DNA of 64,000 nucleotides from a virus (taxonomy: Duplodnaviria > Caudoviricetes): positions 3,145 through 67,144 of the IMG/VR virus record IMGVR_UViG_3300014969_000019; one strand, written 5' to 3'. Below are positions 395-26,772 of the stretch, in pieces; positions within the stretch are counted from its first letter, which is position 1; every line of letters starts with the position of its first letter. Under the pieces are notes generated by a model. That model saw only the letters and a program-made list of their open reading frames with translations, had not been told where the DNA came from and did no database searches. The position numbers and the translations under genes are program-made.

Positions 395-670
395 ATGGAG
401 AGTGCGTTCGGGGTCGACCACGGCGAGGTGAGCAAGAGCATCGGCTTGCCCAAGGGTCTGCGGGCAGCCAAGGGTCGAGGCGGCCTCTCGACCAACTACG
501 CCGGTAACCGCAAGATGGCTCACTTCACGGGGCGGTTGATCGCCCGGAACAAGGCGAAGGGTGGGGGCGTCTACCCACATGCGGGGCAGAGGTACCGCGA
601 GAAGAGCCGAGAGCTCGTGGACCAGGCCACCAAGAGCGGTCCGAGAAGGAAGCGGGTACAGCTGCCGTGA
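395..670 (+). CDS. Small basic protein with SAFGVDHGEVSK N-terminal tag (tag family member 1)
   Basis: Begins MESAFGVDHGEVSKS; RBS gagg upstream; stop overlaps next start (GTGA). Confidence 0.8.
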   Translation: MESAFGVDHGEVSKSIGLPKGLRAAKGRGGLSTNYAGNRKMAHFTGRLIARNKAKGGGVYPHAGQRYREKSRELVDQATKSGPRRKRVQLP

Positions 671-7102: not shown

Positions 7103-7104
7103 CA

Positions 7105-8214: not shown

Positions 8215-8243
8215 TGACTAGCCCAACGAGTGAGGATGAAGAC

Positions 8244-8504: not shown

Positions 8505-8670
8505 GTCACCAGGGGACACTACGGAGGTCGTCGAGACCGACGAGGAAGTCCCCGAGCTCCTCGACGAGCCAGACAATGAGCCTGTCGAGGGTACGGAGTT
8601 TCAGGTGGTGGAAGTCCAGGACCGCGAGTGGACCGAACGACCTGAGGTCGACAAGCACCCGGAGGACTGA
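8497..8670 (+). CDS. Small highly acidic hypothetical protein
   Basis: MSESPGDTTEVVETDEE...; overlaps upstream gene; TGATG coupling to the lysin. Confidence 0.55.
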   Translation: MSESPGDTTEVVETDEEVPELLDEPDNEPVEGTEFQVVEVQDREWTERPEVDKHPED

Positions 8671-13162: not shown

Positions 13163-16100
13163 ATGCCGTACAAGAGCGCGGCTCAGCGCGGGTACCTGCA
13201 CGCTCGTCACCCGGAGATCGCAGCCAGGTGGGACGCTGAGATCCGCGGCAAGAAGAAGCGGATCAAGAAGAGCGGCACCGATCTGTTCGAGTTCGAGACT
13301 GAGGATGGCCGAACCCTGCACGACGAGCACATCGTCCCGGGCGTGCGTGAGGTCTACGACCCCGAGTCAGGAGACCATGTGGAGTTCCATGACGGTGAGG
13401 GGAACACCCTGACCAAGCGACAGGCCCAGACCCGGATCCGGAAGTACAAGCGGGACAAGGCGGGGAAGTTCTCCAAGATGAGCGCCAAGGACTCAGGCTG
13501 GCTGAAGGCGATCGCGGCTGGTACTGCCGCGGGTGCCCTGGCCAACCAGTTCCCGCGCGTGCAGGACGTCGAGCGGAACCGGCGGAAGAAGAAGGGCGTG
13601 GTCAAGAAGATGCTGCTCCCGGCCTCTGCTGACCCGGACTTCAACCAGGAGGCCGCTCAGCGGGCGTTCGACCTGGTGATGAAGATGGACGACGACACCG
13701 CCGAGATGTTCACCCACATCCTGGTGACCGAGCTGTTCACCGACGACATCGAGAAGAACCTCGGCACCCTGCAGCGTCACCTCGATGACGTGATCTCCAA
13801 GCAGCTGGATGGCCTGAAGAAGGCCCACCTCCGACTGGTGTCGAAGGGGATGGACAACGAGCAGGCGGTGGCCTACGCGCAGGCGCTGGCGCTGTTCTCC
13901 AAGGCTGTGGAGTGGGAGTCGAAGGAGCACCCGCGTGGGGCGAGCGGTCGGTTCCGGACCAAAGTCACCCACAACCAGGTCAAGGAGCTGCACCCGAAGA
14001 CGGCAGGAACACTCGGCATCGCGGCAGTTCCTGAGGGTCTGAAGGGGAAGGACCGGCCCAAGTTCCAGGACGAGTACCGGCAGCTGGCCGACTTCCTCTC
14101 CTCGGTGAACCAGTCCACAGGTGGCCATGGCAACCACGAGGTGACCCTGCACTTCCAGGACAGGGCAGGTCGTCAGTTCACTGACCGGATGACTGGCACG
14201 GTGCCGCCGACCGAACACCTGGCCAACCCCGACCTGACTCTGATCGGAGCCGAGGCGAAGCCGACCACGCTCACTGCGGGTGGTGCTGCCTTCGGTCTGG
14301 CTGGAGCCATGGGCGCGAACATGTCCCCGTCCCAGGTCGGGGTGGTGAACCGTGTCGACCAGAAGGGTGGTGCGTTCGCCGACCAGTGGACCAGTGCTGG
14401 GGACGATTTGCACTCGAACGCCAAGCTCTACGGCCGAACCAAGGCGACCGGTGAGTTCCTGAGCGCAGTCGGTCCTCCGGGGTCCAAGGCTCAGCTGGCC
14501 GGCAAGTTCGCCGAGATCGTGGGGAACGCGGGCCCGCAGGCCGAGAACGTGCTGGGCCCCACGGCCCGGAAGACCGCCTACCGGTACCGGGGCACCGAGA
14601 AGACCCCGGACCGCGAGCTCGTGCGCGAGTACGGGGTGGGCATCGAGCAGGGCAAGCTGCAGACCGAGGGAGAGGTTCCCGTCGGTCGGATGGGTGCTCG
14701 ACGGGTCGCTGCAGCCGACCGCGCACCCACCTGGGACGAGCGGGAGCTGGGTCGCCGTGCGGTGCTGACGAGCCTGCGGGAGACACTGCCCAGTCAGGGG
14801 CTCTACGCCCTGCAGCTGGCCTCGGGGAACACTCCTCCGTCCGAGGGCGTGATCATCAACTCCAACGGCCAGCTGGCCACCCAGGCAGTGGGCTACGCCG
14901 ATGACCACTACCTCCCGTTCAACCTGAAGAACCTGAAGTCGCTGAAGGGTGGGGAGTACATCCGGACTCGCTCGGTGGGTGGGCTGACTGCTGAGGATGT
15001 CTACGCCGGACTGGTCTCGGGTGCGCGCCAGGTGACGGTGACCTCACGCTCGGGCACGTTCACGATGACCTTCGAGGACGACTTCCGCGGTGGGCGTCGG
15101 CACTCGGACAAGGCGCGTCGGATGACCCGTCGCTACGAGCAGATCCTGGACGCGGTGCAGTCCGGGCAGGTGGAGCGGGCTCAGATCCCGCCCGAGATCA
15201 AGGCCACCATCCAGCGCCAGGTCCGGGAGCAGAACCCGGGCGAGGGCAACGTGACGATCCGGAACATCATCAAGGAGCGGGAGAAGGAGTACCGGGAGGA
15301 CCCGGAGCTCAGCGATGTCGACGAGCAGGCCGCTCGACACCTGGCCCTCGCTCGGTTCAACGACGACAACTCCCCGGAGTCCAAGGCCTTCATCCGGCAG
15401 CGCCTGAACGACCTACAGCGGAAGAAGCAGGTCAACTGGCAGCTGAACGGGGATGGGTACGAGGCTGCACTGACTGCTCTGGCCGAGCAGTTCCCGTACT
15501 ACATCAAGACCGACTCGCACGTCCTGGACGACGAGGACAAGACCAGCCTGGAGCCGGACCGCGGCTACGTGGAGCCCGGTCGGAACCGTCCCACCGCCGC
15601 TCGTGGTGTGGGCCTGTACGGGACCAAGATCAACCCCGGGCTGAAGCGAGAGGGGCTGGGGGCCTCCACTGCCTCGCACGCGGACTACCAGCGCGGTCGG
15701 TTCCCGACCCGCTCGAAGGAGCCCGAGGCCGAGAAGACCGAGGAAGAGAAGAAGGCAGCCGAGAAGGACTCGCCCAAGAAGTTCGCCGCCCAGGTGGCTC
15801 AGGACATCAAGCACCGGACCGCTGCCGACGCGCTGCACGAGGCGCTGTTCACGGGGCTGGAGGCGAAGACTGTCCACGCCGACGTCGGAAACGCCTACCC
15901 CTGGCTGAAGGACCGGGATGAGTACAACCGGATGATGGAGGGCATGGAGGGCCCGGCTGCGGTGGACACCCTGGTGGCCGGTCTAGACACGAACCTGAGC
16001 GCCTTCCCCAAGGGTGTCCAGGACGCGGTGAAGGCCTGGAAGATCTCCGGAACGGCCATCGGTGACCAGAAGTTCGTGGCTGGCCGCTGGCCCACCTCTC

Positions 16101-16825
16101 CGATCCCGTTCCCGGGTCCGGCCTACCAGAAGGGTGCTCCCCTGGAGACCCAGCAGGCCGAGTTCCGCCGGATCAACTCCGAGTACGGACGGAGCCTGAA
16201 GTTCGGTGGCAACATCGGCTCACTGAACGACCAGCAGCTGAAGCAGGAGCACGACTCTCTGGTGGGCGTGCTGCGCGCGATCCGACAGAACCCGGAGGTG
16301 GTGCAGGCCACCAACGAGCAGGGCGCTCAGACACGTCGGGCGATCGCTGCGACGTTCTACGAAAGCGCTGCTCCGGACACGGTGGAGATCCTGATGAGGC
16401 GTCCCGAGCAGATCGAGCGGAAGATGCTGGACCTCCAGCAGATGCGGGCCCTGAAGGCGATCGGGTCCTGGCCGGAGGGCGCGGAGTACCAGCACACCGC
16501 TCGGACTCCAGAGGCGCTGAACGAGGCCAAGCCGGCCACGCCGATTTTCGGCGACCAGGGCACCGACATCGTCGACGCCGAGGTGGTCGAGGAGCGTGAG
16601 CCGGTCGACGAGCGCGCGCGCGCGGTCATGCTGCGGGAGCAGAACGCTCGTCTGGTGCGTGCAGCCGGGGCACGGCTGGCGCAGAAGCCGGAGTCGGAGT
16701 GGACCGAGAACGAGCACGAGCTGAAGAGCGCGCTGGAGGACTACGCCGAGAACCCCCCGACCGACAGCGGTGAGCTGGAGGCGGCCCATGAGCACATGTA
16801 CGACCTGCACCGCCGGTCCTACTGA
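13163..16825 (+). CDS. Large multi-module head-associated protein (1220 aa), function unknown
   Basis: Long ORF coupled between portal and MuF; MPYKSAAQR N-terminal module, EHPRG..GRF motif, JAB-like segment. Confidence 0.8.
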   Translation: MPYKSAAQRGYLHARHPEIAARWDAEIRGKKKRIKKSGTDLFEFETEDGRTLHDEHIVPGVREVYDPESGDHVEFHDGEGNTLTKRQAQTRIRKYKRDKAGKFSKMSAKDSGWLKAIAAGTAAGALANQFPRVQDVERNRRKKKGVVKKMLLPASADPDFNQEAAQRAFDLVMKMDDDTAEMFTHILVTELFTDDIEKNLGTLQRHLDDVISKQLDGLKKAHLRLVSKGMDNEQAVAYAQALALFSKAVEWESKEHPRGASGRFRTKVTHNQVKELHPKTAGTLGIAAVPEGLKGKDRPKFQDEYRQLADFLSSVNQSTGGHGNHEVTLHFQDRAGRQFTDRMTGTVPPTEHLANPDLTLIGAEAKPTTLTAGGAAFGLAGAMGANMSPSQVGVVNRVDQKGGAFADQWTSAGDDLHSNAKLYGRTKATGEFLSAVGPPGSKAQLAGKFAEIVGNAGPQAENVLGPTARKTAYRYRGTEKTPDRELVREYGVGIEQGKLQTEGEVPVGRMGARRVAAADRAPTWDERELGRRAVLTSLRETLPSQGLYALQLASGNTPPSEGVIINSNGQLATQAVGYADDHYLPFNLKNLKSLKGGEYIRTRSVGGLTAEDVYAGLVSGARQVTVTSRSGTFTMTFEDDFRGGRRHSDKARRMTRRYEQILDAVQSGQVERAQIPPEIKATIQRQVREQNPGEGNVTIRNIIKEREKEYREDPELSDVDEQAARHLALARFNDDNSPESKAFIRQRLNDLQRKKQVNWQLNGDGYEAALTALAEQFPYYIKTDSHVLDDEDKTSLEPDRGYVEPGRNRPTAARGVGLYGTKINPGLKREGLGASTASHADYQRGRFPTRSKEPEAEKTEEEKKAAEKDSPKKFAAQVAQDIKHRTAADALHEALFTGLEAKTVHADVGNAYPWLKDRDEYNRMMEGMEGPAAVDTLVAGLDTNLSAFPKGVQDAVKAWKISGTAIGDQKFVAGRWPTSPIPFPGPAYQKGAPLETQQAEFRRINSEYGRSLKFGGNIGSLNDQQLKQEHDSLVGVLRAIRQNPEVVQATNEQGAQTRRAIAATFYESAAPDTVEILMRRPEQIERKMLDLQQMRALKAIGSWPEGAEYQHTARTPEALNEAKPATPIFGDQGTDIVDAEVVEEREPVDERARAVMLREQNARLVRAAGARLAQKPESEWTENEHELKSALEDYAENPPTDSGELEAAHEHMYDLHRRSY

Positions 16826-18768
16826 TGACCACCACCCCGTACGTCGAGCTCAGGTACAACCCGACTGACCTGCGGCCTCGGGACCTGCCCAAGATCGGGG
16901 AGTTCCTGGGGACTCCCTCAGACGCGATCCAGGCTGCCCTGATGGCTGCTCGGATGCGGATGATCTACGAGATGAAGACCGAGGTCCGCGGGCTGGTGGA
17001 GCCGACGGAGGCCTCGCTGCTGCGGGCTGCTGACCTGGCCTGGCAGGCGGTGTTCTGGCGGTACCGGAAGATCTCCGCCCCGATGATGGCTGACGCCTAC
17101 ATCCGCGCGTACCGGGCAGCTGGTGCCGGCGATGTCCCGATGAGCGTGATCTACGACCTGGCCGACAAGCACGCGGAGAAGATCGGGGACTACTTCCACG
17201 GCACCTCCAGAGACGCCCTGGCCCAGGGCTTCAACACCCTGGTCAACCGGCGGATCCCGGCCAAGGCCGCTGCTGACCGAGTCCTGGATGCCTACGGGCT
17301 GACTCCTCGACAGATGCGCGGGTTCACCTCGAACAAGCAGCTGATGGTGCCGGTGGAGTCGGTCTCTCCGTTCGACGTGAAGGCTCGCGCGCGGGCCTAC
17401 ATCGACAAGTCCTTCACCACCCGAGTCCGGAAACTGGCTCGCCAGGAGGAGCACAACATCGACGAACAGGCCAAGCAGTTCGCCTGGATGTGGATGCAGG
17501 ACAAGGGTCAGCTCAACAAGAAGGCCCAGAAGATCTGGATCACTGCCAAGGACGAGCGGGTCTGCCCGGTGTGCGGTCCTCTTCACGGTCAGAAGGTGGG
17601 GATCAACGAACAGTTCAAGACCCACGTCGGACAGTTCTGGACACCCGGCCTGCACCCGAACTGCCGGTGCGTGGTGCGGCTGATCGAGAACCGGTTCTCC
17701 AAGGCCGACGATGACTGGGACCCTGATGAGCACCCGCGCGGGGGAGACCCGGAGAACCGAGGCCGGTTCTCCCGAGTGGCGGACCGACCGACTGGTCCGG
17801 TGATCAACATCGCCGAACCGGATGTGATCGAGCAGGCTCCGCCGCCGGCCAACTTCGCGCCTGGGGCGATGGCCAACATCGCGAGAGGTGCACTGCGCCC
17901 GGTGACGGCCAACCTGGTAGCTCCTGCGAACATCGCCGCGCCCGCGAACATCTCCGTCGAGGCGGCCAACATCGTGTCGGCAGCAGCCAACATCGAGACA
18001 CCGCAGGCGACCATCCTGGGGCTGGCGTTGCCGACCGTGACGGCTCCGAAGGTCGCCGAAGTCACGGTGATTCAGAACCCCAAGAAGAAGACCAAGATGG
18101 TCCCGTACGAAGAGGTCAGGGACCTGGACGAGCCTTACTACAAGGTGGTCTCCGGCAGCCCGGCGTTCCAGCAGTTCGACCAGGAGGTCTTCTCCGCTGA
18201 CCGAGACCAGGTGATCCTGGACGCTGCCTCGGTCCGAGAGGCTGCGATCGAAGAGATGATGGACCACCACGTCGTGGATGGGGTGGTGAAGTTCAAGGAG
18301 GCGCACTCCAGCTACGGCATCCCGCTGGAGGCCCGGATCCCGTCGGAGGAGTTCCGCAACATCCTGGAGGTCCTGGCTCAGCACAGCACCTCCGAGCCTC
18401 CCAACGACGCGCTGATCGAGGTGGAGTACTTCGACCCGGACGGCTACTACACCGACCCGCCGACAGAGACGCAGGGGAAGACGGTGCTGGACATCGCGCA
18501 CGCGCTCGGGGTGGATCCCGATCACCTGGCTGTGTACGTGGCCAAGCTGGACCGGGTGCACTCAGAGAACGTGGGCCGCGGGACGGCCCAGCGTCAGCAG
18601 ATCGCGGGGCATGTCTACGACGAGTACTCGATCACCGGGGACTACCGGATAAGCGACTGGGAGCCGGAGTACGAGGAGGGCACTGGGACTCCGGTGGGGA
18701 TGGACATCGTCTCGATCGAGCCGCACGATCCGGTGACCGGGTTCTTCGAGGAAGACGTCCGCGACTAG
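16825..18768 (+). CDS. MuF-like minor capsid protein with C-terminal extension
   Basis: WITAKDERVCPVCGPLHG...HPNCRC is the MuF signature. Confidence 0.88.
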   Translation: MTTTPYVELRYNPTDLRPRDLPKIGEFLGTPSDAIQAALMAARMRMIYEMKTEVRGLVEPTEASLLRAADLAWQAVFWRYRKISAPMMADAYIRAYRAAGAGDVPMSVIYDLADKHAEKIGDYFHGTSRDALAQGFNTLVNRRIPAKAAADRVLDAYGLTPRQMRGFTSNKQLMVPVESVSPFDVKARARAYIDKSFTTRVRKLARQEEHNIDEQAKQFAWMWMQDKGQLNKKAQKIWITAKDERVCPVCGPLHGQKVGINEQFKTHVGQFWTPGLHPNCRCVVRLIENRFSKADDDWDPDEHPRGGDPENRGRFSRVADRPTGPVINIAEPDVIEQAPPPANFAPGAMANIARGALRPVTANLVAPANIAAPANISVEAANIVSAAANIETPQATILGLALPTVTAPKVAEVTVIQNPKKKTKMVPYEEVRDLDEPYYKVVSGSPAFQQFDQEVFSADRDQVILDAASVREAAIEEMMDHHVVDGVVKFKEAHSSYGIPLEARIPSEEFRNILEVLAQHSTSEPPNDALIEVEYFDPDGYYTDPPTETQGKTVLDIAHALGVDPDHLAVYVAKLDRVHSENVGRGTAQRQQIAGHVYDEYSITGDYRISDWEPEYEEGTGTPVGMDIVSIEPHDPVTGFFEEDVRD

Positions 18769-18790
18769 CGCAGGTGAGGACGATGGTGAC

Positions 18791-19816
18791 ATGAGCGACA
18801 TCCACAAGCTGCTGGCCACGGACGACACGTTCCGTGAGGTCGCCGACCTGCTCTTCGGTGGTGGCGGAGACGAGCTCATCGCCAAGATGTCCCCGACCCA
18901 GTCCGACCTGTCCACCCACGATCGGAAGAAGCGCAAGGTCACCGCCGGTCTGAGTGCGGTGGGCGCGGCTGCTGGCGCAGCCGGACTGGGTCTGGGCGCG
19001 CACAACCTGGGACGGTCTTTCAAGGCCGCTCGGGGTGCGCAGAAGCTGGCGGGTGAGTTCCGTGCTCCGGGTGCTCGGAGGGCGGCGGCCAAGACCGCGG
19101 TGGGCAAGGAGAAGCTGGCGACTGGGCTGGTCCCGCTGGAGGTGGCCGGCCTCGGTGGTGAGCTGATGGCCACCAAGATCCTGCACGGGGACACCAAGAA
19201 GAAGGGCTCCCTGGTCAAGAAAGACCTCGGCGACATGCTGAACAACGCCAAGGAGCCGCCGACCAAGGGCAGCGTCACTCGGGCGGTGATCTCCAGCCCG
19301 AAGGCCCGGAAGAAGGGGATGCTGTACACCAAGAAGGGCGCGGGGGCGCTGAAGAAGCTCCCGAACAAGATCAAGACCACCAACGAGGTCGAGAAGTCCT
19401 ACGACGAGGTCGACGTGATCTGGGAGGGCGAGTTCGCCAAGGCCGACGCCGACAAGCAGCAGGTCTTCGGCTGGGCCAGCGTGGTGGAGGTCAACGGCGA
19501 GCCGGTGGTGGACCTGCAGGGTGACTACATCTCCTCCGACGAGATGGAGAAGGCCGGCTACGAGTACGTGATGAAGTCGCGCAGAGGCGGGGACATGCAC
19601 CTGCGTGACGACTGGAGCCCGGTCCAGAAGAGCGACATGATCGAGAGCTTCATCGTCACCGAGGAGAAGCGCGACGCGATGGGCCTCCCGGACTCGGTCC
19701 CCACGGGCTGGTGGGTCGGGTTCCAGGTCCAGGACCCCGAAGTCTGGTCCAAGGTGAAGTCCGGTGAGCGGACCGGGTTCTCCATCCACGGGCACGGGAA
19801 GCGGAGCCCGGCATGA
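18791..19816 (+). CDS. Prohead (capsid maturation) serine protease, XkdF-like, with basic N-terminal pro-region
   Basis: C-terminal ~130 aa: KQQVFGWASV...VDLQGD.I...EMEKA...GGDMH (His)...WWVGF...VWSKVKSGERTGFSIHG (Ser). Confidence 0.85.
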   Translation: MSDIHKLLATDDTFREVADLLFGGGGDELIAKMSPTQSDLSTHDRKKRKVTAGLSAVGAAAGAAGLGLGAHNLGRSFKAARGAQKLAGEFRAPGARRAAAKTAVGKEKLATGLVPLEVAGLGGELMATKILHGDTKKKGSLVKKDLGDMLNNAKEPPTKGSVTRAVISSPKARKKGMLYTKKGAGALKKLPNKIKTTNEVEKSYDEVDVIWEGEFAKADADKQQVFGWASVVEVNGEPVVDLQGDYISSDEMEKAGYEYVMKSRRGGDMHLRDDWSPVQKSDMIESFIVTEEKRDAMGLPDSVPTGWWVGFQVQDPEVWSKVKSGERTGFSIHGHGKRSPA

Positions 19817-20031
19817 GCACCTCCGCCTTCGGAGTCGACCACGGCGAGATCTCCAAGGCGAGCCGCGCGCAGGTAGTCAACGTTGGCGAACTGTTGGGGA
19901 AGCCTAGTAGGGCTGAGCGTCTTCGGCTGCTGGGGCCGCAGAAGACCAAGAACAAGCGCAGAACTGCCATGGGTCTCGCTGCTGGCGCTGGCGGTGTGGG
20001 CGGTTACGCCGCAGGAAAGAGTAAGCGATGA
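19813..20031 (+). CDS. Small basic SAFG-tag protein (member 2)
   Basis: MSTSAFGVDHGEISKA...GLAAGAGGVGGYAAGKSKR; ATGA overlap with the protease stop. Confidence 0.8.
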   Translation: MSTSAFGVDHGEISKASRAQVVNVGELLGKPSRAERLRLLGPQKTKNKRRTAMGLAAGAGGVGGYAAGKSKR

Positions 20032-21386
20032 GCCTGAGTGCCTTCGGGATCGACCATGGCGACATCTACAAGGCCGAGGACCCGAACCGGAAGAAGAAGC
20101 AGGCCGCTGCCGCTGCTGGTGGCACTGCTGCGGTCGGCGGAGTCGGGTTGGCCGCGACCAAGATCCCTGAGCACTCTCACTACGACAAGAAGACTCGGAA
20201 GTACCTGCACTCGCTCCCCGCGGGCGAGCACGAGGTGCCTACCGCGATGCTGGGGAAGCGTCCTCGGAAGCTCGGGGCCAGGAAGCAGCAGGCCCCGTAC
20301 GTGGCCGCGATGGCGCAGGAGCGTCCGCTGGAGTCCTTCCACGCCTCGCCGGTTCCGATCACCAGGTACAAGGGCAAGGGCCACCCCACCATCCAGCGGG
20401 ACAACGCGCACACGGTGATGGCCAACGCGATGAAGGGCCGTACGACCAGGATCAAGATCGAGGACGCTCCCGGCTACCGCCCGAACCGGCGCACTGCTGA
20501 CGAGCTGGTCCGTCGTGGCCAGTCGAAGTACCAACAGCGCCGGCTGAGACTGCACACCAACCTCTCGGAGAAGGCGATCGAGGGGATCCGCGGGAAGTAC
20601 ACCGACAAGTCCCGAGCTGCGAACACGGCCAAGCGTCCGCACGGGGTGGTCGAGGAGTCCCTGAAGTACAACCCGAAGAAGTACGGGGTGGGCAGGGCAG
20701 TGGGCCGGGCCAAGAACCTCGCAGCAGTGGTGAAGAGGGATCGCCGGGGGCGAGACACGGCCGCCGGCGTCACCGGGGCGGCTGGGGTAGGCACGCTGGC
20801 ATCTACGCCGGTGCGTCGCTCAGCGGCCAAGGTGGACGTCTCCGGCGGCTCGATGTCGGCCTCTGACGCCAAGAAGGTTGTCTCCCCCGGCTACCGCCCT
20901 GGGAACAAGCGCGCGATCCGGACGATGGCTGCCAACCTCGGTCACCTGGAGAACAAGCCCACCACGGTGGTCAGGTACAAGAGCGGGCATGTGGTCCCCT
21001 TCGACGGGAACCACCGAGCCTCGGCGCGAGTCGCGCGCGGGGACGCGCGAGTCCCAGTGAACGTGATCGAGGGTGGTGAGCGTCCGGCGATCAGTGCTGC
21101 TCGGAACGCCTTCCACGTCGGTCAGCAGAAGGTGCATCGGAACCGGATGGACCGGGACGTGTTCAAGCCCAACGCCAGGATCGGACGGCACGCGGGTGAG
21201 ACCAAGGCCTACCGCTCCATCGCCAACGCCTCCCCACTCAGGTCCGGGAAGCGGGTCGCGGTCGGGTCCACCAAGATCGGATCGGGTCCGACCAAGGCCG
21301 TACTGAGGACCAAGCAGGGTGCGACCCTGGCTGCGGGAGCCGCTCTGCTCGGGACCTCTGCTCACCTCCACCGGAAGAAGAGCTGA
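20028..21386 (+). CDS. SAFG-tag protein (member 3) with ParB/Srx-like unit(s)
   Basis: MSLSAFGIDHGDIYKA; PFDGNHR motif at ~21003; very basic. Confidence 0.8.
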   Translation: MSLSAFGIDHGDIYKAEDPNRKKKQAAAAAGGTAAVGGVGLAATKIPEHSHYDKKTRKYLHSLPAGEHEVPTAMLGKRPRKLGARKQQAPYVAAMAQERPLESFHASPVPITRYKGKGHPTIQRDNAHTVMANAMKGRTTRIKIEDAPGYRPNRRTADELVRRGQSKYQQRRLRLHTNLSEKAIEGIRGKYTDKSRAANTAKRPHGVVEESLKYNPKKYGVGRAVGRAKNLAAVVKRDRRGRDTAAGVTGAAGVGTLASTPVRRSAAKVDVSGGSMSASDAKKVVSPGYRPGNKRAIRTMAANLGHLENKPTTVVRYKSGHVVPFDGNHRASARVARGDARVPVNVIEGGERPAISAARNAFHVGQQKVHRNRMDRDVFKPNARIGRHAGETKAYRSIANASPLRSGKRVAVGSTKIGSGPTKAVLRTKQGATLAAGAALLGTSAHLHRKKS

Positions 21387-22240
21387 TGAAGCCACTCATG
21401 AGCGATGCGGAGATGCGTCGCCGGCAGAAGCTCCAGGGCAAGATCGGGCGGACCACCTCCACCCTGGGTCTGTCCGGCGTGGCGCTGACCGGTGCAGCGA
21501 TCGCGACCAAGAAGAAGCCCGGCTCGCTGAAGGCGATCACCAAGGTGCCGGGTCTGAGCAGAGTGAGTCACGGCGGGCTGAAGAACGCGGCCTTCCACAC
21601 CTCGATCGCTGCCGGTGGTATCGGCGGTGTCGGCGGGTTCAACCAGGCGAGCATCTACTCGGCTGAGTCCAGGAAGCGCAAGGCGGCGGCTGTGGTGAAG
21701 AAGGGGTTCGGCATGGAGATGGGCTACTACGGCGAAGAGGGGAAGCCGCTGACGCACGAGGAGATCGAGGCCGAGATCGAGAAGGCCTGGACGCCCTCTG
21801 CTTCCAACTTCGACTCCGAGCGCAGCCGGCACAAGCGCACCAAGGGCTACGAGGGCGGTGCTCTGGTCGGGGCCGGAGCTGGTGCTGCGTACGCCACTCG
21901 GCACGGAGTGAAGGCCGGCAAGGCCGCCAGCAAGATCAAGTCCAAGGAGATGACGCCAGTCCTGCACCGAGTGAACTCCGCAGGCCAGCCCTACCGGATA
22001 GGGCTCGGGTCTCAGGGGGAGAAGGCCATCTCGACCGGTTCCCTGAAGAAGCTGGGAGGCCACAGCGGGAAGGCTGCGGTGGGTCTGGCCGCAGTGGGTG
22101 GCGCTGCTGCCACACACTCCGCGATCAAGCGGAAGAAGCAGAGTGGATGGCAGTCCTACGCCAAGCGCGATGCCACATCAGCGTTCGGGGTCGATCACAG
22201 CGACAACCCGAATGGACAGCACCGTGAGACTGAGAACTAG
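21386..22240 (+). CDS. Basic Gly/Ala-rich protein with C-terminal SAFGVDH remnant
   Basis: TGATG coupling; several hydrophobic Gly/Ala segments; ends KRDATSAFGVDHSDNPNGQHRETEN. Confidence 0.75.
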   Translation: MKPLMSDAEMRRRQKLQGKIGRTTSTLGLSGVALTGAAIATKKKPGSLKAITKVPGLSRVSHGGLKNAAFHTSIAAGGIGGVGGFNQASIYSAESRKRKAAAVVKKGFGMEMGYYGEEGKPLTHEEIEAEIEKAWTPSASNFDSERSRHKRTKGYEGGALVGAGAGAAYATRHGVKAGKAASKIKSKEMTPVLHRVNSAGQPYRIGLGSQGEKAISTGSLKKLGGHSGKAAVGLAAVGGAAATHSAIKRKKQSGWQSYAKRDATSAFGVDHSDNPNGQHRETEN

Positions 22241-22251
22241 AGGTAGATGAG

Positions 22252-23079
22252 ATGCCACGACCGAAGAACCACCTGACCGACATGGAGATCGACGAGATCT
22301 CCACCGTCGACAAGGCCGCGAACCAGCACTCACGGTTCGTCATCGCGAAGCGGGCTCCCGAGGAGGAAGAGATGCCCAAGCTCTACAACCAGGAGGGCCA
22401 GCCCCTCGACGAGGACCAGCTGGAGTTCGGCGACATCGTGTACGACGACGCAGGCGCTGCCTACGAGTACGTCGAGAACGAGGTCGAGGACGAGCCGGCG
22501 AAGAAGAAGGAAGACGAGGACGAGCCAGTGCCCGAGCTCGCAGGTGTGGGCAAGAGCGCCTTCTTCGAGAAGTCGGCTCCGAAGACCGGCAGCTTCAGCG
22601 CATCGGTGATGGAGGAGCTCTCCAAGGCGTTCTCCGACAACGACCGTGACGCGGTCATCGCCAAGGCGCTCGGCCGGGTCGAGGAGCTGGAGAAGGCACA
22701 GGAGGAGTCGGCCAAGATCGCCAAGTCCGAGCGCGACCTGCGCCTGACTCGTGAGTACATCTCCAAGGCCGCGGAGTACAACCTCCCGATCCCTGCTGAC
22801 GAGCTCGGTCCGGTGCTCTACCGGATGGCCGAGTCCATGAGCTTCGACGACTGCAAGGTGATCGCCAAGGCGCTGGAGACGGCCGGCGACATCATCTTCG
22901 AGGAGACGGGCTACACGGGTGGCGGCGACAACTCCGACGTGTACTCCCAGGTCGAGGCTCACGCCTACGACCAGTTCGGGAAGTCGGAGGGCTTCGACTC
23001 CGTCTCAGCCATCAATACGGTGTTCGACCAGAATCCGGACGCCTACGACGAGTACCTGCGCTCGCAGCAGGCCCGGTAG
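22252..23079 (+). CDS. Scaffolding protein
   Basis: Acidic, helical, between protease cluster and decoration/MCP; N-terminal LTDMEIDEISTVDKAAN. Confidence 0.8.
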   Translation: MPRPKNHLTDMEIDEISTVDKAANQHSRFVIAKRAPEEEEMPKLYNQEGQPLDEDQLEFGDIVYDDAGAAYEYVENEVEDEPAKKKEDEDEPVPELAGVGKSAFFEKSAPKTGSFSASVMEELSKAFSDNDRDAVIAKALGRVEELEKAQEESAKIAKSERDLRLTREYISKAAEYNLPIPADELGPVLYRMAESMSFDDCKVIAKALETAGDIIFEETGYTGGGDNSDVYSQVEAHAYDQFGKSEGFDSVSAINTVFDQNPDAYDEYLRSQQAR

Positions 23080-23509: not shown

Positions 23510-24508
23510 ATGCCGAACCCCACTCAGAGCGATCTCCACGTCAACGTTCCGCTGACCAACGTCTCTGTGGCCTACATGCAGGACAAGGCCCAGTTCATCG
23601 CCGACAAGGTGTTCCCTCGGGTCCCCGTGCAGAAGCAGAGCGATCTGTACTGGAAGTACTCCAAGTCCGACTGGCGCAGGACGGACGCGCAGAAGCGTGC
23701 GCCCGGCACCGAGACGGCCGGAGTCGGCTGGAAGGTCGACACGGGGCAGTACTTCGCCGAGGTCTGGGGTGTCCACAAGGACATCGACGACCAGGTCCGG
23801 GCGAACGCTGACTCGAACTGGAGGCTCGACTCTGACGCCACCACCTTCGTCACGAACCAGCTCCTGCTGCGCCGTGACCTGGACTGGAACGACAAGTTCT
23901 TCAAGACGGGCCAGTGGGGTACGGACCTCGCCGGCGTGACGGGCACCGTGGGTGCCGGCCAGTTCCTGCAGTGGAGCGACCCGGCCTCGGACCCGATCGT
24001 GCAGTTCGCCGACCTGCAGACTAACTTCGTGGAGCAGTCAGGCCGCAAGGCCAACACGCTGGTCCTCGGTGCTCGGGCGATCACCCAGCTGAAGAACCAC
24101 CCGGACATCATCGACCGGATCAAGTACACCCAGCGTGGTGTCGTGACCACCGACCTGCTCGCGTCGCTGTTCGACGTGGAGCGGATCCTGGTCAGCTACG
24201 CGACGGTGACCGACGTGGCCGAGCTGAACGACGCGAAGGCCCAGGACGCTGCGGCGACCTACCGGTTCATGTCCAACTCCAAGTCGGCGCTGCTGGTCTA
24301 CACCCCCAGCTCGCCGTCGCTGATGACCCCGGCCGGCGGCTACACCTTCACCTGGAACGGGTACCTGGCTGGCAACAGCTACGGGATCCGGATGAAGAAC
24401 TTCCGGATGGAGCCGATCGCTGCGGACCGCATCGAGGGCGAGATGACCTACGACATGCGTGTCGTGGCCAAGGACATGGGCATCTTCCTGTCCGCCGCGG
24501 TGGCGTAA
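23510..24508 (+). CDS. Major capsid protein (HK97 fold)
   Basis: 332 aa; LHVNVPLTNVSVAY...IADKVFPRVPVQKQSD.Y pattern; strong RBS gaggag; followed by a hairpin. Confidence 0.92.
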   Translation: MPNPTQSDLHVNVPLTNVSVAYMQDKAQFIADKVFPRVPVQKQSDLYWKYSKSDWRRTDAQKRAPGTETAGVGWKVDTGQYFAEVWGVHKDIDDQVRANADSNWRLDSDATTFVTNQLLLRRDLDWNDKFFKTGQWGTDLAGVTGTVGAGQFLQWSDPASDPIVQFADLQTNFVEQSGRKANTLVLGARAITQLKNHPDIIDRIKYTQRGVVTTDLLASLFDVERILVSYATVTDVAELNDAKAQDAAATYRFMSNSKSALLVYTPSSPSLMTPAGGYTFTWNGYLAGNSYGIRMKNFRMEPIAADRIEGEMTYDMRVVAKDMGIFLSAAVA

Positions 24509-24569: not shown

Positions 24570-24791
24570 ATGATGGAGAGTGCGTTCGGGGTAGACCACG
24601 GAGAAATCTCGAAGAAGGGACCGCTCTCGGCTTCGATGACCATCAGGGGTGCCAAGCTGAGCCCTGTGGTCGGACGCGGACTGCCCGGGAAGCGCGCCAA
24701 GGCCATGTCTCCGCTCACCGCTGGTAGTGCTGCAGCCGGGAAGCACCGGCTCGGTGGCGGTACCCACTCATCCGGACTGTTCGCGAGGTAG
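24570..24791 (+). CDS. Small basic SAFG-tag protein (member 5)
   Basis: MMESAFGVDHGEISKK; RBS gaggag 5 nt upstream; in frame with track ORF 24459..24791. Confidence 0.8.
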   Translation: MMESAFGVDHGEISKKGPLSASMTIRGAKLSPVVGRGLPGKRAKAMSPLTAGSAAAGKHRLGGGTHSSGLFAR

Positions 24792-24799
24792 GAGCGCAG

Positions 24800-25336
24800 A
24801 TGCCACAGCTGCTGAAGAACGAGGGGATCTCCTTCGTCGCGGCGAAGAACTTCACCTACGCCGGCGAGGACTTCGTGATGGGCCAGGAGTTCCCGGAGGA
24901 GAAGGCCCGCAACGTCGAGACGCTCATCCGCGCACGGTTCCTGCTCCCGGTGCTCGAAGAGGGCCACCTGCGGCCCCGGCACTGGCACACCCACATCCGT
25001 ACTCGGGAAGAGGCCGAGGAGTACCTGAACCGGGAGCGAGTGCAGCTGAGGATGCCGCACGAGCCGGACTCAGACGAGGTCGTGGACATCCCGGTCCTGA
25101 CCCACCCCGAGGACACCCCAGAGCCGGAGGGCGAGGGTGAGGACGCTCTGGCTCCCACTCAGGAGTCCGAGTCGGCTCCTGAGCCCCCGGAGAGCCTGGA
25201 GGAGACCTACGACCCGGCCGAGCACAACGTGGAGGCGGTCCTGGAGTACATCGCCGAGCATCCCGAGCAGAGGGATGAGGTCCTGGCGATGGAGCGGGCG
25301 AACCGTGGTCGCAAGGGGATCGTGGGGGAGGACTGA
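24800..25336 (+). CDS. Head-tail region protein with acidic linker and C-terminal HeH-like helical motif
   Basis: YDPAEHNVEAVLEYI...RDEVLAMERANRGRKGI; position after MCP. Confidence 0.6.
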   Translation: MPQLLKNEGISFVAAKNFTYAGEDFVMGQEFPEEKARNVETLIRARFLLPVLEEGHLRPRHWHTHIRTREEAEEYLNRERVQLRMPHEPDSDEVVDIPVLTHPEDTPEPEGEGEDALAPTQESESAPEPPESLEETYDPAEHNVEAVLEYIAEHPEQRDEVLAMERANRGRKGIVGED

Positions 25337-25674
25337 TGGAGTCAGCATTCGGCATCGACCACGGCGAAGAGGTCTCCAAGCTGGGCATCGGCGGGTTGGG
25401 GACCAAGATCGGCCAGAAGACCATGAAGATCGGCCAGGGACTGCGCCAGTCTGGGGCCAACAACATGGCCATGGGTCGCAAGGCCGGTGGCGGGTTCGGT
25501 GCCGGCATGCAGGTCGGTGGCGCGAAGCGAGTCCAGGCTGGAGGCCAGTTGCGCAAGCTCGGTCAGGGCATGCAGAAGCGTCCCGGTCTGACCGGCGGTC
25601 TCGCAGTCGGTGGTGGCGCAGCTGGCGTCGGTGCTGCAGGAGGCATGTTCGCGAACCGGCAGCGGCGGTTCTGA
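25336..25674 (+). CDS. SAFG-tag glycine-rich basic protein (member 6)
   Basis: MESAFGIDHGEEVSKL; TGATG coupling on both sides. Confidence 0.8.
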   Translation: MESAFGIDHGEEVSKLGIGGLGTKIGQKTMKIGQGLRQSGANNMAMGRKAGGGFGAGMQVGGAKRVQAGGQLRKLGQGMQKRPGLTGGLAVGGGAAGVGAAGGMFANRQRRF

Positions 25675-25979
25675 TGCAGAGCGCGTTCGGGATCGACCAC
25701 GGCGACGAGATCACCAAGATCCGTCTGCCCAGGCGGCCAGTGAAGACGCCGCCCCCGCGCGCGCCCTCGCGAGCCAGCCAGATCGGCGGGAAACTGAACC
25801 GACTCGGCGAGAAGGACATCTCGATCAAGGAGCTGGGCGGAAGCGCAGGGCGAGGCGTCGGCAACGTCGGCAGCTTCATGCAGCGGCACCCGGGTCTCAC
25901 CGGTACTGCACTGGTGGGAGGAGGCGGCGCGGGAGGCTACAAGGTCATCACTGACAGGCAGAGGAAGAAGGCCCGCTGA
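25674..25979 (+). CDS. SAFG-tag glycine-rich basic protein (member 7)
   Basis: MQSAFGIDHGDEITKI; C-terminus MQRHPGLTGTALVGGG is paralogous to member 6 (MQKRPGLTGGLAVGGG). Confidence 0.8.
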   Translation: MQSAFGIDHGDEITKIRLPRRPVKTPPPRAPSRASQIGGKLNRLGEKDISIKELGGSAGRGVGNVGSFMQRHPGLTGTALVGGGGAGGYKVITDRQRKKAR

Positions 25980-26488
25980 TGACCTACACCTACCTCGGCG
26001 CTGGTACCACCGACAAGGACACCGTCCGGTTCCTGCTCCAGGACACTGACCCGTTCAACGCGAACGAGTGGCAGGTCTCCGATGAGGACATCCAGTGGGC
26101 CTACGACACCTGGTACCCGCTCTACCACTCCCTGCAATATGTCGCGGCGAGCATCGCTGATACCATCGCGGCGCGTTACGCACGCGAGGCGTCCTACAGC
26201 GCCGACGGGGTGTCCGTCAGTCTCGGGCCGGTGGGGGACCAGTACCGAGCGCTGGCGGTGAATCTGCGCCAGCAGTACCAGGCGCAGCTCGTTGGGACGG
26301 TCCCATCTGCGGGTGGGATCGAGCCCAACGAGCCCCTGGAGCCCAACACCAAGGCGTTCGCCTTCGGCAAGGGCATGCACGACAACATGGAGGCCGGCGC
26401 TCAGGACTACGGCGGGGTCTACCCGCCGGACATCCCGCTCACCGGGAACCAGAACGTGCCCGACTACGAGAAGGTCGTCGAGCCGTGA
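25979..26488 (+). CDS. Head-to-tail adaptor
   Basis: DKDTVRFLLQDTD...VSDEDIQW...AASIADTIAARYAR...DGVSVS pattern. Confidence 0.75.
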   Translation: MTYTYLGAGTTDKDTVRFLLQDTDPFNANEWQVSDEDIQWAYDTWYPLYHSLQYVAASIADTIAARYAREASYSADGVSVSLGPVGDQYRALAVNLRQQYQAQLVGTVPSAGGIEPNEPLEPNTKAFAFGKGMHDNMEAGAQDYGGVYPPDIPLTGNQNVPDYEKVVEP

Positions 26489-26772
26489 GGTCCGCCTTCG
26501 GGGTGGAGCACTTCGCCAAGAGCTACACCAAGATGGCCCCGAAGCTGGCTGGGGCCCTGAAGTCGGTCGACCCGGCCAAGGCCACCACGATGGCCGGCAA
26601 GCTCCGTCACCACGCCGGGACCCTGCGCCTGGAGGCCGGTCACGTCGGTCGGACCCAGGGCTCGATGTCGCGCGGGTTCCCTCGGTCGATGGCGCAGCAG
26701 GACCGGAGTGAGTCTCGGCTGCTCACCACCGGAGCGATCAACGCCAACAAGCCGAAGCGGTTCCTGCCATGA
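26485..26772 (+). CDS. SAFG-tag variant protein (member 8)
   Basis: MRSAFGVEHFAKSY; GTGA overlap with the adaptor stop. Confidence 0.75.
   Translation: MRSAFGVEHFAKSYTKMAPKLAGALKSVDPAKATTMAGKLRHHAGTLRLEAGHVGRTQGSMSRGFPRSMAQQDRSESRLLTTGAINANKPKRFLP

What the first reader, a model, noticed from the sequence alone, without database searches (positions are those of the whole stretch)
13163..23079. Recurrent hydrophobic-x-Lys|Ala/Ser motif suggests head proteins are polyproteins cut by the prohead protease
Seen: the scaffold contains VIAK|R, VGK|S, FEK|S, LSK|A, IAK|A, IAK|S, ISK|A, IAK|A and FGK|S. The same motif falls at apparent module boundaries elsewhere: giant protein (IKK|S, FSK|M, VVKK|M, FSK|A), MuF (FSK|A before the extension), protease precursor (IAK|M, LVKK|D, VEK|S, FAK|A just before the catalytic domain), ORF 20028 (IYK|A, VVKR|D) and ORF 21386 (VVKK|G, IEK|A, YAK|R). 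Every N-terminal SAFG tag ends the same way (VSK, ISK, IYK, ITK, FAK). Established, from memory: Listeria phage A511 major capsid protein is matured between Lys23 and Ser24. Inference: one protease specificity releases a dozen or more small peptides from these precursors. The MCP here has no such leader.
Basis: partly seen in the sequence, partly recalled or inferred. Interest (0 to 1): 0.85.

Follow-up and report, generated by a model that had tools for sequence, protein, structure and literature searches.

The report
Lysine cut-site code in phage head
In an uncultured soil phage and its many relatives, a short motif (hydrophobic residue, any residue, lysine) is packed into the head scaffold, ends every shared leader tag and is avoided in the cargo proteins, so it is most likely where the phage's head protease cuts, although no cut has been measured.

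Summary
Count enrichment, however, is real only in the scaffold: 10 [VIFLY]-x-K-[AS] observed against 0.87 expected. The 1220-aa protein, MuF, the protease precursor, ORF452 and ORF284 sit at background.

Comparative data strengthen the core idea.
- In 139 diverse scaffold relatives, phi-x-K is 2.6-fold over-represented. phi-x-R is not (1.06-fold).
- All eight family-conserved scaffold lysines have a hydrophobic residue at P3. Every other lysine is unconserved.
- 72 of 76 distinct SAFG leader tags end in [IVF]-x-K at variable spacing.
- The motif is about two-fold depleted in the 1220-aa protein body, the MuF C-terminal extensions and 73 tagged cargo bodies.
- Relatives carry in-frame fusions with V-x-K at the joints.
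- Scaffold-position proteins of four cultured phages with the same protease family show the enrichment. A haloarchaeal virus does not.

Best reading (about 0.6): [IV]-[SA]-K|[AS] is the cleavage signal of the XkdF-type prohead protease. It would dismantle the scaffold and clip leaders, as T4 gp21 does at L/I-x-E. Cleavage is inferred, not shown. FAK|A lies inside the protease fold and is doubtful. Several other listed sites are individually unproven. The scan has noted similar lysine-ended leaders in other phages.

The parts
22252..23079 (+). Scaffold-position protein (275 aa), the main carrier of the motif
   Evidence: phi-x-K 12 obs/5.0 exp; [VIFLY]xK[AS] 10/0.87. PHROG 13547, unknown function. 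It lies between the protease and the MCP. AF2 model has pLDDT 78 and is mostly helical from residue 115.
22342..22353 (+). Site IAK|R (K33)
   Evidence: K in 56/56 diverse relatives, all with hydrophobic P3. Lies in a low-confidence coil just after the EVSLVD-PAN-like N-terminal motif.
22546..22557 (+). Site VGK|S (K101), followed by SAFF
   Evidence: K in 47/51 relatives, hydrophobic P3 in 45. Lies in a disordered stretch.
22618..22629 (+). Site LSK|A (K125)
   Evidence: K in 51/56 relatives, P1' Ala in 49. Lies at the end of helix 115-125.
22657..22668 (+). Site IAK|A (K138)
   Evidence: K in 50/56 relatives, P2 S24/A24, P1' Ala in 46. Lies inside predicted helix 129-176.
22717..22728 (+). 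Site IAK|S (K158)
   Evidence: K in 36/56 relatives, all with hydrophobic P3. Lies inside helix 129-176.
22759..22770 (+). Site ISK|A (K172)
   Evidence: K in 33/56 relatives, all followed by Ala; A173 is invariant. Close relatives swap ISKA for IAKS.
22861..22872 (+). Site IAK|A (K206)
   Evidence: K in 45/56 relatives; P1' A26/C13/V4. Lies inside helix 198-222.
22975..22986 (+). Site FGK|S (K244)
   Evidence: K in 54/54 relatives, P2 A/S/G, P1' S23/A12. Lies in the loop after helix 230-242.
18791..19816 (+). Prohead protease precursor (341 aa); XkdF-type domain at residues 214-338
   Evidence: Pfam PF14550, 71.2 bits against a cut-off of 24. H270, S331 and H333 are invariant in 21 relatives. 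The model's best PDB match is T4 gp21 (5jbl): Z 7.7, rmsd 3.3 over 114 residues. phi-x-K is retained in relatives at IAK|M (18878-18889), LVKK|D (19211-19225) and VEK|S (19388-19399). FAK|A (19433-19444) lies in strand 1 of the fold.
13163..13966 (+). N-terminal region of the 1220-aa protein (residues 1-268), candidate propeptide or anchor region
   Evidence: phi-x-K 12/7.0 here; 129/90.5 over 15 homologues. FSK|M (13469-13480) and VVKK|M (13598-13612) are retained in 14/14. FSK|A (13895-13906) is retained 15/15 by eye, although an alignment gap gives 0.43 by the automatic count.
13967..16825 (+). Body of the 1220-aa protein, depleted of the motif
   Evidence: phi-x-K 4/11.3 in the window. Over 15 homologues it is 99/197, and 99/203 with block shuffles (null 173-238). 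K-x-phi is 1.3x and phi-x-R 1.1x.
16825..18768 (+). MuF-like protein (647 aa) with FSK|A (17695-17706) at the end of the MuF domain and a variable C-terminal extension
   Evidence: Pfam PF04233 at residues 198-284. Relatives keep FSK, LAK or LEK at this point and then diverge; one relative has FSK|SAFGI. Extensions are depleted of phi-x-K: 22/37.9, below the null range 23-51.
395..670 (+). SAFG-tagged small ORF; tag ends VSK|S
19813..20031 (+). SAFG-tagged small ORF; tag ends ISK|A
20028..21386 (+). ORF452, SAFG-tagged; tag ends IYK|A
   Evidence: phi-x-K 5/8.5 over the whole protein.
21386..22240 (+). ORF284 with VVKK|G, IEK|A and YAK|R, and a C-terminal SAFGVDH (22178-22198)
   Evidence: The three sites are kept as phi-x-K in 88-100% of 17 relatives. 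Family counts are at background, 111/112. In-frame fusions in relatives have V-x-K 3-5 residues before this module in 6/6 cases.
24570..24791 (+). SAFG-tagged small ORF; tag ends ISK|K
25336..25674 (+). SAFG-tagged small ORF; tag ends VSK|L
25674..25979 (+). SAFG-tagged small ORF; tag ends ITK|I
26485..26772 (+). SAFG-tagged small ORF (GTG start); tag ends FAK|S
23510..24508 (+). Major capsid protein (lambda gpE-like), no leader
   Evidence: PHROG 1005, E 1e-86. 40-47% identical to MCPs of Arthrobacter, Rhizobium, Pseudomonas and Roseobacter phages. phi-x-K 6/5.0.

Best explanation
The motif [IV(LFMY)]-[S/A/x]-K, usually followed by Ala or Ser, is most likely the cleavage signal of the phage's XkdF-type (Pfam Peptidase_S78_2) prohead serine protease. 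Four steps make up the model, all inferred by analogy with T4 gp21 and its L/I-x-E sites.
1. Inside the prohead, the protease cuts the scaffold at eight conserved sites (after K33, K101, K125, K138, K158, K172, K206, K244). The resulting pieces of 13-68 residues can leave the shell.
2. It clips the 12-17-residue SAFG leader peptides from the small cargo proteins and ORF452.
3. It separates N-terminal regions or modules from the bodies of the 1220-aa protein and the MuF extension.
4. Cargo bodies that must survive in the head have been purged of the motif, with Arg tolerated in place of Lys.

Shown here: the sequence statistics, their conservation, the motif avoidance, the protease family and the fold. 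Not shown: any cleavage, the identity of the acting protease, or packaging of the cargo.
For: Scaffold enrichment:
- 10/0.87 for the four-residue motif and 12/5.0 for phi-x-K.
- phi-x-K ranks at or next to the top of 676 residue-class patterns in the window scaffold, and top in a distant one (z 3.9 and 5.1).

Family-wide pattern, Lys-specific and directional:
- 139 representatives, each under 50% identical to the others: phi-x-K 1507/582 (2.59x). Controls: phi-x-R 1.06x, phi-x-E 1.29x, K-x-phi 1.51x.
- 69% of all Lys have a hydrophobic residue at P3.
- Logo: P3 I 7.4x/V 3.2x; P2 S 3.3x/A 2.0x; P1' S 3.3x/A 2.3x.
- All eight Lys conserved in at least 33/56 relatives have a hydrophobic P3. All eleven other Lys are unconserved.

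Tags:
- 72/76 distinct N-terminal tags have [IVF]-x-K ending 3-10 residues after the tag core (shuffle null 21%, maximum 33%).
- The spacer length varies, so the motif is constrained separately from the core.
- Codons vary synonymously, including AGY/TCN for Ser, so selection acts on the peptide.

Avoidance in cargo:
- 1220-aa protein body 99/197 in 15 homologues, below expectation in all 15. Block-shuffle null range 173-238.
- MuF extensions 22/37.9.
- 73 tagged cargo bodies 90/153.9 (null 122-184), while phi-x-R is 1.37x.
- Baselines in the window: tail 1.12x, right arm 0.96x, TerL/portal/MCP 0.94x.

Polyprotein joints in relatives:
- VSK|SAFGVDHEVSK|A, FSK|SAFGI and YAKR|SAFG.
- V-[SFG]-K sits before the ORF284-type module in 6/6 in-frame fusions.

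Same protease family in cultured phages, scaffold-position proteins enriched:
- RDJL Phi1 gp72 18/6.2 and RHph_Y60 gp057 21/9.0.
- DLP5 gp005 17/10.9 and PDP46 0042 17/10.2, with recurrent VQK|S.

Protease: Pfam PF14550, invariant His/Ser/His, T4 gp21-like model.

Precedents:
- SPN3US gp245 cuts at A-x-E, with multiple cuts inside propeptides (PMC10052503).
- T4 internal proteins share only a capsid targeting sequence (PMC3012670).
Against: - No direct evidence of cleavage. The virus is known only from metagenomes.
- Four of the eight scaffold sites lie inside predicted helices.
- Outside the scaffold, Lys with a hydrophobic P3 are not better conserved than other Lys (16/29 against 44/105, Fisher p 0.14).
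- The protease N-region (0.97x), the ORF284 family (0.99x) and the portal (0.99x) show no enrichment.
- The MCP and portal carry the motif at the expected frequency, so they would have to be protected by folding.
- Tail-fibre-like genes upstream of the terminase show 1.7x enrichment (39/22.6) without being plausible substrates. Modest enrichment, such as 1.4x in the 1220-aa protein's N-region, is therefore not diagnostic.
- FAK|A sits in strand 1 of the protease model. The same phi-x-K-[VA]-D opens the protease domain of relatives with almost no N-terminal extension, so that Lys may be structural.
- Haloarchaeal virus HHTV-2, with the same protease family, shows no enrichment (5/4.5).
- The homologue sets share ancestry, so counts over relatives are not independent.
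Confidence: 0.62

Rival explanations
1. The motif is a structural or binding feature and not a cut site. In the helical scaffold, hydrophobic-x-Lys-Ala would be a repeated contact unit, for example with the acidic capsid interior or with other scaffold chains. The [IV]-S-K at the tag end would be part of the docking epitope.
For: - Four of the eight conserved scaffold sites lie in long predicted helices.
- The tag end GE-[IV]-SK-A resembles strand 1 of the protease domain (GEFAKA). The L057 protease starts with a tag-like MTSFNAHGTISK joined directly to the domain.
- Helical or beta-rich proteins such as the tape measure and tail fibres also show some phi-x-K excess.
Against: - The excess is Lys-specific (phi-x-R 1.06x) and directional (K-x-phi 1.5x against 2.6x). 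Simple amphipathic periodicity does not predict either.
- P2 varies freely at conserved sites.
- The motif is two-fold depleted in three independent sets of cargo sequence, while phi-x-R and K-x-phi are not. That is expected for a harmful cut site, not for a contact motif.
- The motif sits at in-frame module joints in relatives.
Confidence: 0.2
2. The motif is a cleavage signal, but it is read by another protease: a host enzyme, or another phage protein such as a domain of the 1220-aa protein. The XkdF-type protease would not be the reader.
For: - The link between motif and protease rests only on gene neighbourhood and analogy.
- HHTV-2 has the protease family without the enrichment.
- In Staphylococcus phage 80alpha, a host protease removes the leaders of scaffold and capsid proteins (from memory, not checked here).
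Against: - Enrichment in the scaffold-position protein travels with the XkdF-type protease in six bacterial phages or contigs from very different hosts and G+C contents.
- No other protease family was found in the head module.
Confidence: 0.08
3. Partial rival. Only the scaffold and the tag ends carry functional sites. The instances listed in the protease N-region, ORF452, ORF284 and parts of the 1220-aa protein are what a Lys-rich background gives by chance.
For: - Counts are at expectation in those proteins.
- Their phi-x-K lysines are no better conserved than neighbouring lysines in basic patches.
- IKK|S in the 1220-aa protein is retained in only 23% of relatives, and FEK|S in 1/41.
Against: - Several listed sites keep hydrophobic-x-K with a varying middle residue in otherwise variable linkers. 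These are the 1220-aa protein's FSK|M and VVKK|M (14/14), protease IAK|M (19/19) and VEK|S (89%), and ORF284 YAK|R (17/17) and IEK|A (94%).
- Fused relatives place V-x-K at module joints.
Confidence: 0.35

Closest known systems
Phage T4 prohead protease gp21 (MEROPS S77) with its L/I-x-E sites, scaffold gp22 degradation and the capsid targeting sequence of internal proteins
   Same: - Hydrophobic P3, free P2 and charged P1.
- Many cuts in the scaffold.
- Short shared leaders on otherwise unrelated head-internal proteins, each ending in the protease's motif.
- The protease model's best structural match is gp21 (Z 7.7).
- The concept is described in PMC3012670.
   Different: - P1 is Lys here, not Glu.
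- The protease belongs to Pfam PF14550 (XkdF type).
- The tag (SAFG[IV][DE]H...) is unrelated to the T4 tag, and it also occurs at C-termini and inside fused ORFs.
- The MCP is not processed.
- Nothing has been measured.
Giant-phage proteases phiKZ gp175 and SPN3US gp245 (A/S/G-x-E code)
   Same: One motif marks many head proteins. Long propeptides are cut several times (PMC10052503).
   Different: A different P1 residue, a different protease family, much smaller heads, and here no proteomic data.
HK97 gp4 (MEROPS S78) and the Listeria phage A511 / Herelleviridae capsid maturation cut after Lys (both recalled from memory, not verified here)
   Same: Cleavage after Lys with a small P1' residue (Ser) would match the motif proposed here.
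   Different: Those cuts remove an N-terminal delta domain or leader of the MCP. Here the MCP has no leader, and the predicted substrates are a separate scaffold and internal proteins.
Mu-like head module (portal gp29, MuF gp30, protease I / scaffold Z)
   Same: - Mu-type portal (PF06074) and MuF (PF04233) lie next to a protease and a scaffold.
- The Mu portal C-terminus is reported to be removed by protease I (PMC11915804).
   Different: - The protease family differs.
- The portal C-terminal extension here has few phi-x-K, and the portal family shows no enrichment.
Polyvalent or polymorphic MuF-linked cargo proteins of phages
   Same: Swappable modules hang behind a MuF domain and inside long head-module ORFs. 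The fusions differ between relatives.
   Different: Here a specific short motif marks the joints and is avoided inside the modules.

Membership tests
Peptidase_S78_2 (XkdF-type putative phage serine protease, Pfam PF14550) | Match to the family model above Pfam's gathering score | tested here: met
   71.2 bits against a cut-off of 24; residues 214-338 cover profile positions 4-124 of 126
Peptidase_S78_2 (XkdF-type putative phage serine protease, Pfam PF14550) | Conserved candidate catalytic Ser and His residues | tested here: met
   H270, S331 and H333 (FSIHG) are invariant in 21 sequences, including a 56%-identical one. Their catalytic role is not tested.
Peptidase_S78_2 (XkdF-type putative phage serine protease, Pfam PF14550) | Herpesvirus assemblin / T4 gp21-like prohead protease fold | tested here: inconclusive
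   AF2 model has pLDDT 67. Best PDB match is 5jbl (T4 gp21): Z 7.7, rmsd 3.3, 114 residues, 2 Z units above the next hit. Foldseek gave E 0.99, TM 0.51.
Peptidase_S78_2 (XkdF-type putative phage serine protease, Pfam PF14550) | Proteolytic activity and its specificity | not testable with these tools
T4-type head maturation code (one protease motif in scaffold, propeptides and leader tags) | Motif strongly over-represented in the scaffold and conserved across the family | tested here: met
T4-type head maturation code (one protease motif in scaffold, propeptides and leader tags) | Shared short leader on unrelated proteins that ends in the motif | tested here: met
   72/76 distinct tags
T4-type head maturation code (one protease motif in scaffold, propeptides and leader tags) | S77 protease with Glu at P1 | tested here: not met
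   The protease is PF14550, and the motif has Lys at P1. phi-x-E is only 1.29x in scaffolds. It works like the T4 system but is not a member of it.
T4-type head maturation code (one protease motif in scaffold, propeptides and leader tags) | Cleavage at the motif and packaging of the tagged proteins demonstrated | not testable with these tools
   Uncultured virus; no proteomic data
HK97-type maturation (protease removes an N-terminal delta domain of the MCP) | MCP with an N-terminal delta domain or leader | tested here: not met
   The MCP is 332 aa and lambda gpE-like. The ORF opens 2-8 codons before the Met, and relatives align from residue 1.
Head-module polyproteins | Modules that are separate genes in some genomes and fused in frame in others, with a common joint | tested here: met
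   In-frame tag-flanked fusions (L052, L014, L053, L025). MuF and 1220-aa-protein homologues range from 637 to 1919 aa. V-x-K precedes the ORF284-type module in 6/6 fusions.

The most novel reading that the evidence does not exclude
XkdF-type prohead proteases as a family read an [IV]-x-K code. A large uncultured soil-phage clade (over 800 scaffold relatives, genomes near 80 kb) uses this code with a SAFG tag as a modular capsid-loading system. Any protein given the tag, at either end or inside a fusion, would be loaded and trimmed, and cargo evolves under motif avoidance with Lys-to-Arg replacement. That would make cargo sets predictable from sequence alone and the system reusable for packaging foreign proteins.
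Probability: 0.35. Interest if true: 0.6.

Novelty: new member of a known kind. Interest (0 to 1): 0.45.

Why it matters
I found no published cleavage specificity for the widespread XkdF-type prohead proteases. A sequence-derived prediction, [IV]-[SA]-K|[AS], is directly testable in cultured phages: Roseobacter phage RDJL Phi1, Rhizobium phage RHph_Y60, Stenotrophomonas phage DLP5 and E. coli phage PDP46.

Enrichment in the scaffold, presence at tag ends and two-fold avoidance in cargo together give a purely computational way to tell which head-module proteins are likely trimmed and which are likely packaged intact. It also helps annotation. Mature protein boundaries in this large uncultured clade probably differ from the ORF boundaries.

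Tried and rejected
- Megablast of the region against cultured phages found nothing. tblastn of the scaffold against cultured phages also found nothing.
- The genome-contig scan with the MCP gave only two MAG contigs and no host assignment. One of them (L057) served as a distant test case.
- A sequence search of the PDB with the protease domain gave nothing meaningful. Foldseek against the PDB gave no hit at E <= 0.001.
- Complex prediction (protease domain with scaffold N-terminus) was unavailable, so nothing was folded.
- Literature searches for XkdF specificity, Lys-specific prohead cleavage, the HK97 residue-103 cut and the A511 Lys23/Ser24 cut returned no usable statement. Those precedents remain from memory.
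- Nucleic-acid-level conservation of the tags (a translation signal read as peptide) is rejected for the N-terminal tags, because synonymous codons vary, including both Ser codon families.
- Amphipathic-helix periodicity as the cause of the scaffold pattern is rejected as the sole cause. phi-x-R is not enriched, and the reverse pattern K-x-phi much less so.
- The conservation test of Lys with hydrophobic P3 against other Lys outside the scaffold came out negative. It is reported as such.

Full report
**Context.** The window is 64 kb of a 67-kb IMG/VR virus record with no cultured close relative. G+C is 66%. The head module runs on the + strand in this order:
- large terminase, 9775-11277;
- Mu-type portal, 11299-13161 (PF06074);
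- a 1220-aa ORF with no family match, 13163-16825;
- MuF-like protein, 16825-18768 (PF04233, residues 198-284);
- protease precursor, 18791-19816 (PF14550, XkdF type, residues 214-338);
- three ORFs at 19813, 20028 and 21386;
- an acidic, mostly helical 275-aa protein at the scaffold position, 22252-23079;
- a decoration-like protein;
- a lambda gpE-like MCP, 23510-24508.

**Checking the observation.** Within-protein shuffles for [VIFLY]-x-K-[AS] gave, observed/expected:
- scaffold 10/0.87 (p<0.0005);
- protease precursor 4/1.4;
- 1220-aa protein 3/2.8;
- MuF 2/1.2;
- ORF452 1/1.6;
- ORF284 1/1.2;
- other left-arm genes 12/14;
- right arm 11/9.5.

The looser phi-x-K behaves the same way. By counts, therefore, the motif is recurrent in the scaffold only. 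To guard against a pattern picked by eye, I scanned 676 residue-class pair patterns. phi-x-K is the top or second outlier in the window scaffold (z 3.9). It is the top outlier in the scaffold of a distant contig, L057 (16 observed, 5.4 expected, z 5.1).

**The scaffold family.** About 50 related viral contigs were fetched, and 150 representatives of the scaffold family, each under 50% identical to the others.
- In 139 full-length representatives, phi-x-K occurs 1507 times against 582 expected (2.59x), with z>2 in 96% of them.
- Controls: phi-x-R 1.06x, phi-x-E 1.29x, and the reversed K-x-phi 1.51x.
- 69% of all lysines have a hydrophobic residue two positions upstream, against a hydrophobic frequency of 26.5%.
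- The logo around all 2120 lysines is P3 Ile/Val, P2 Ser/Ala/Gly, P1' Ala/Ser (also Arg) and P2' Phe/Leu.
- In a 57-sequence alignment (34-52% identity to the window for most rows), eight lysines are kept in 59-100% of sequences: K33, K101, K125, K138, K158, K172, K206 and K244.
- In practically every sequence that keeps one of these lysines, P3 is hydrophobic while P2 varies.
- The other eleven lysines of the window protein, including those of FEK|S and LEK|A, are unconserved.

Cutting at the eight sites would give pieces of 33, 68, 24, 13, 20, 14, 34, 38 and 31 residues. The AF2 model (pLDDT 78) puts K33 and K101 in disordered stretches. K125 and K244 lie at helix ends or in a loop. K138, K158, K172 and K206 lie inside helices.

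**Tags.** Seven ORFs in the window start M-x-SAFG[IV][DE]H, and ORF284 ends with SAFGVDH.
- Across the window and its relatives there are 76 distinct N-terminal tags.
- 72 of them (95%) have [IVF]-x-K ending 3-10 residues after the core. Shuffling the downstream 30 residues gives 21%, with a maximum of 33% in 500 trials.
- P3 is I36/V33/F3, P2 is S43/E16, and P1' is A27/G14/L8/F6.
- The spacer varies (GEISK, GISK, TVSK, GYEEVDK, GDLGEVSK, GEISTTTVSK). The Lys motif is therefore constrained separately from the tag core.
- Synonymous codons vary, including both Ser codon families, so selection is on the peptide.
- Forty further SAFG motifs are internal or C-terminal, and most are preceded by phi-x-K or phi-x-K-R: VSK|SAFG, FGK|SAFG, VRK|SAFG, YAKR|SAFG.
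- Some relatives continue in frame into another module, for example ...KVSK|SAFGVDHEVSK|ASILG....
- One MuF homologue reads FSK|SAFGI where the window has FSK|A.
- The scaffold itself has a near-invariant GK|SAF.

**Other proteins.** Several listed sites keep hydrophobic-x-K with a changing middle residue in otherwise variable stretches:
- 1220-aa protein: FSK|M and VVKK|M in 14/14; FSK|A in 15/15 by eye;
- protease: IAK|M in 19/19, VEK|S in 89%, LVKK|D in 89%;
- ORF284: VVKK|G in 88%, IEK|A in 94%, YAK|R in 17/17;
- MuF: FSK, LAK or LEK at the domain end.

In six of six in-frame fusions, V-[SFG]-K sits 3-5 residues before the ORF284-type module. A fair control weakens this, however. Outside the scaffold, lysines with a hydrophobic P3 are not better conserved than other lysines, many of which lie in conserved basic patches (16/29 against 44/105 retained, Fisher p 0.14). 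These sites are therefore plausible but individually unproven. IKK|S is poorly retained (23%).

FAK|A is doubtful for a different reason. The protease-domain model places it in strand 1, which pairs with strand 2. The same phi-x-K-[VA]-D opens the protease domain in RDJL Phi1 gp71, RHph_Y60 and L057, where little or nothing precedes it.

**Motif avoidance.** This was the most informative new result. If something in the head cuts at phi-x-K, proteins that must survive there should lose the motif.
- In 15 homologues of the 1220-aa protein (about 40% identity), the N-terminal 195-268 residues carry 129 phi-x-K against 90.5 expected.
- The C-terminal body of about 1000 residues carries 99 against 197, below expectation in all 15. 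Shuffles within 20-residue blocks give 99 against 203, with a null range of 173-238.
- In the same bodies, K-x-phi is 1.3x, phi-x-R 1.1x and phi-x-E 0.98x.
- MuF C-terminal extensions give 22 against 37.9, below the null range of 23-51.
- The bodies of 73 distinct tagged ORFs (8490 residues, 9.1% Lys) give 90 against 153.9 (null 122-184). There, phi-x-R is 1.37x and K-x-phi 1.22x.
- Baselines in the window are near 1: tail 1.12, right arm 0.96, terminase/portal/decoration/MCP 0.94.

One caveat applies. Tail-fibre-like genes upstream of the terminase show 1.7x enrichment (39/22.6). Modest enrichment alone is therefore not diagnostic.

**Link to the protease.** The protease domain matches PF14550 well above threshold. 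His270, Ser331 and His333 are invariant. Its model is closest to T4 gp21 (5jbl, Z 7.7, rmsd 3.3 over 114 residues), two Z units above unrelated folds, although Foldseek was not significant.

Cultured phages with the same protease family and gene order show the same enrichment in the scaffold-position protein:
- Roseobacter phage RDJL Phi1 gp72, 18/6.2;
- Rhizobium phage RHph_Y60 gp057, 21/9.0 (both p<0.001, with phi-x-R not enriched);
- Stenotrophomonas phage DLP5 gp005, 17/10.9;
- E. coli phage PDP46 0042, 17/10.2.

The last two have recurrent VQK|S or VQK|T. The haloarchaeal virus HHTV-2 does not show the enrichment (5/4.5).

**Interpretation.** The best-supported reading is a cleavage code, [IV]-[SA]-K followed by a small residue, read by the XkdF-type prohead protease. 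It would work like T4 gp21 with L/I-x-E and the capsid targeting sequence (PMC3012670), and like SPN3US gp245 with A-x-E and multiple cuts in propeptides (PMC10052503). The system is not a member of those families. The P1 residue and the Pfam family differ, and the MCP is not a substrate.

The Lys-after-hydrophobic rule resembles what I recall for HK97 and A511, but I could not verify those in the library.

Remaining doubts:
- there is no direct evidence of cutting;
- half the scaffold sites lie in helices;
- the acting protease is inferred from neighbourhood alone;
- homologue counts share ancestry.

**Novelty.** The scan has already recorded lysine-ended leaders and phi-x-K(A/S/G) codes in other uncultured phages. 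This is a further member of a known kind of system, with a testable specificity for a protease family that the searchable literature does not characterise.

Noticed in passing
L002:1205-1400, L030:9150-9350, L032:4020-4215 and other relatives; window 22178-22240: C-terminal SAFGVDH motifs end ORFs 0-19 residues before the stop. In several relatives the codons for FGVDH (TTCGGAGTTGATCATG) contain a GGAG Shine-Dalgarno sequence and the ATG of the next gene in another frame. The tag peptide and the downstream start signal therefore share the same bases.
   Followed up: partly
window 22285-22353 (scaffold residues 12-34): The scaffold N-terminus carries an E[IV]S[LT]VD-x-[AP]AN motif followed by the invariant IAK|R. 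The family consensus is EVSLVDxPANQHA. It resembles the conserved strand found after the catalytic Ser in HK97-type proteases (from memory), while the protease ORF stops right after FSIHG. It may dock the scaffold onto the protease.
   Followed up: partly
window 13895-13966 and 17695-17790: Both FSK|A sites (1220-aa protein and MuF) are followed at a variable distance by an EHPRG...GRF-type motif. Relatives keep it as HPR..G[RQ]F or RRDP.SG.F.
   Followed up: partly
L057:1785-1830: In a distant relative the protease ORF starts with a tag-like MTSFNAHGTISK joined directly to the catalytic domain. The ORF then continues for 580 more residues of Gly/Ala-rich and other modules.
   Followed up: no
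window 13271-13465 (1220-aa protein residues 37-101): The window's 1220-aa protein has an insertion of about 65 residues that is absent from 13 of 14 homologues. It lies between the conserved N-terminal peptide and the retained FSK|M site.
   Followed up: no
window 4758-9218: Tail-fibre-like genes (collagen repeat, tail collar domain and neighbours) lie upstream of the terminase. They show 1.7x phi-x-K enrichment (39/22.6) without being plausible protease substrates.
   Followed up: partly
window 12640-13161 (portal residues about 448-620): The Mu-type portal has a low-complexity C-terminal extension of about 170 residues, rich in Lys, Ala, Glu and Gln. The Mu portal loses its C-terminus to protease I (PMC11915804), but this extension contains no phi-x-K.
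   Followed up: partly
whole clade: The scaffold has 810-823 relatives at E<=0.001 in the protein collections. None of the listed ones carries an informative name, and they sit on contigs up to about 83 kb. This is a large, entirely uncultured phage clade.
   Followed up: partly
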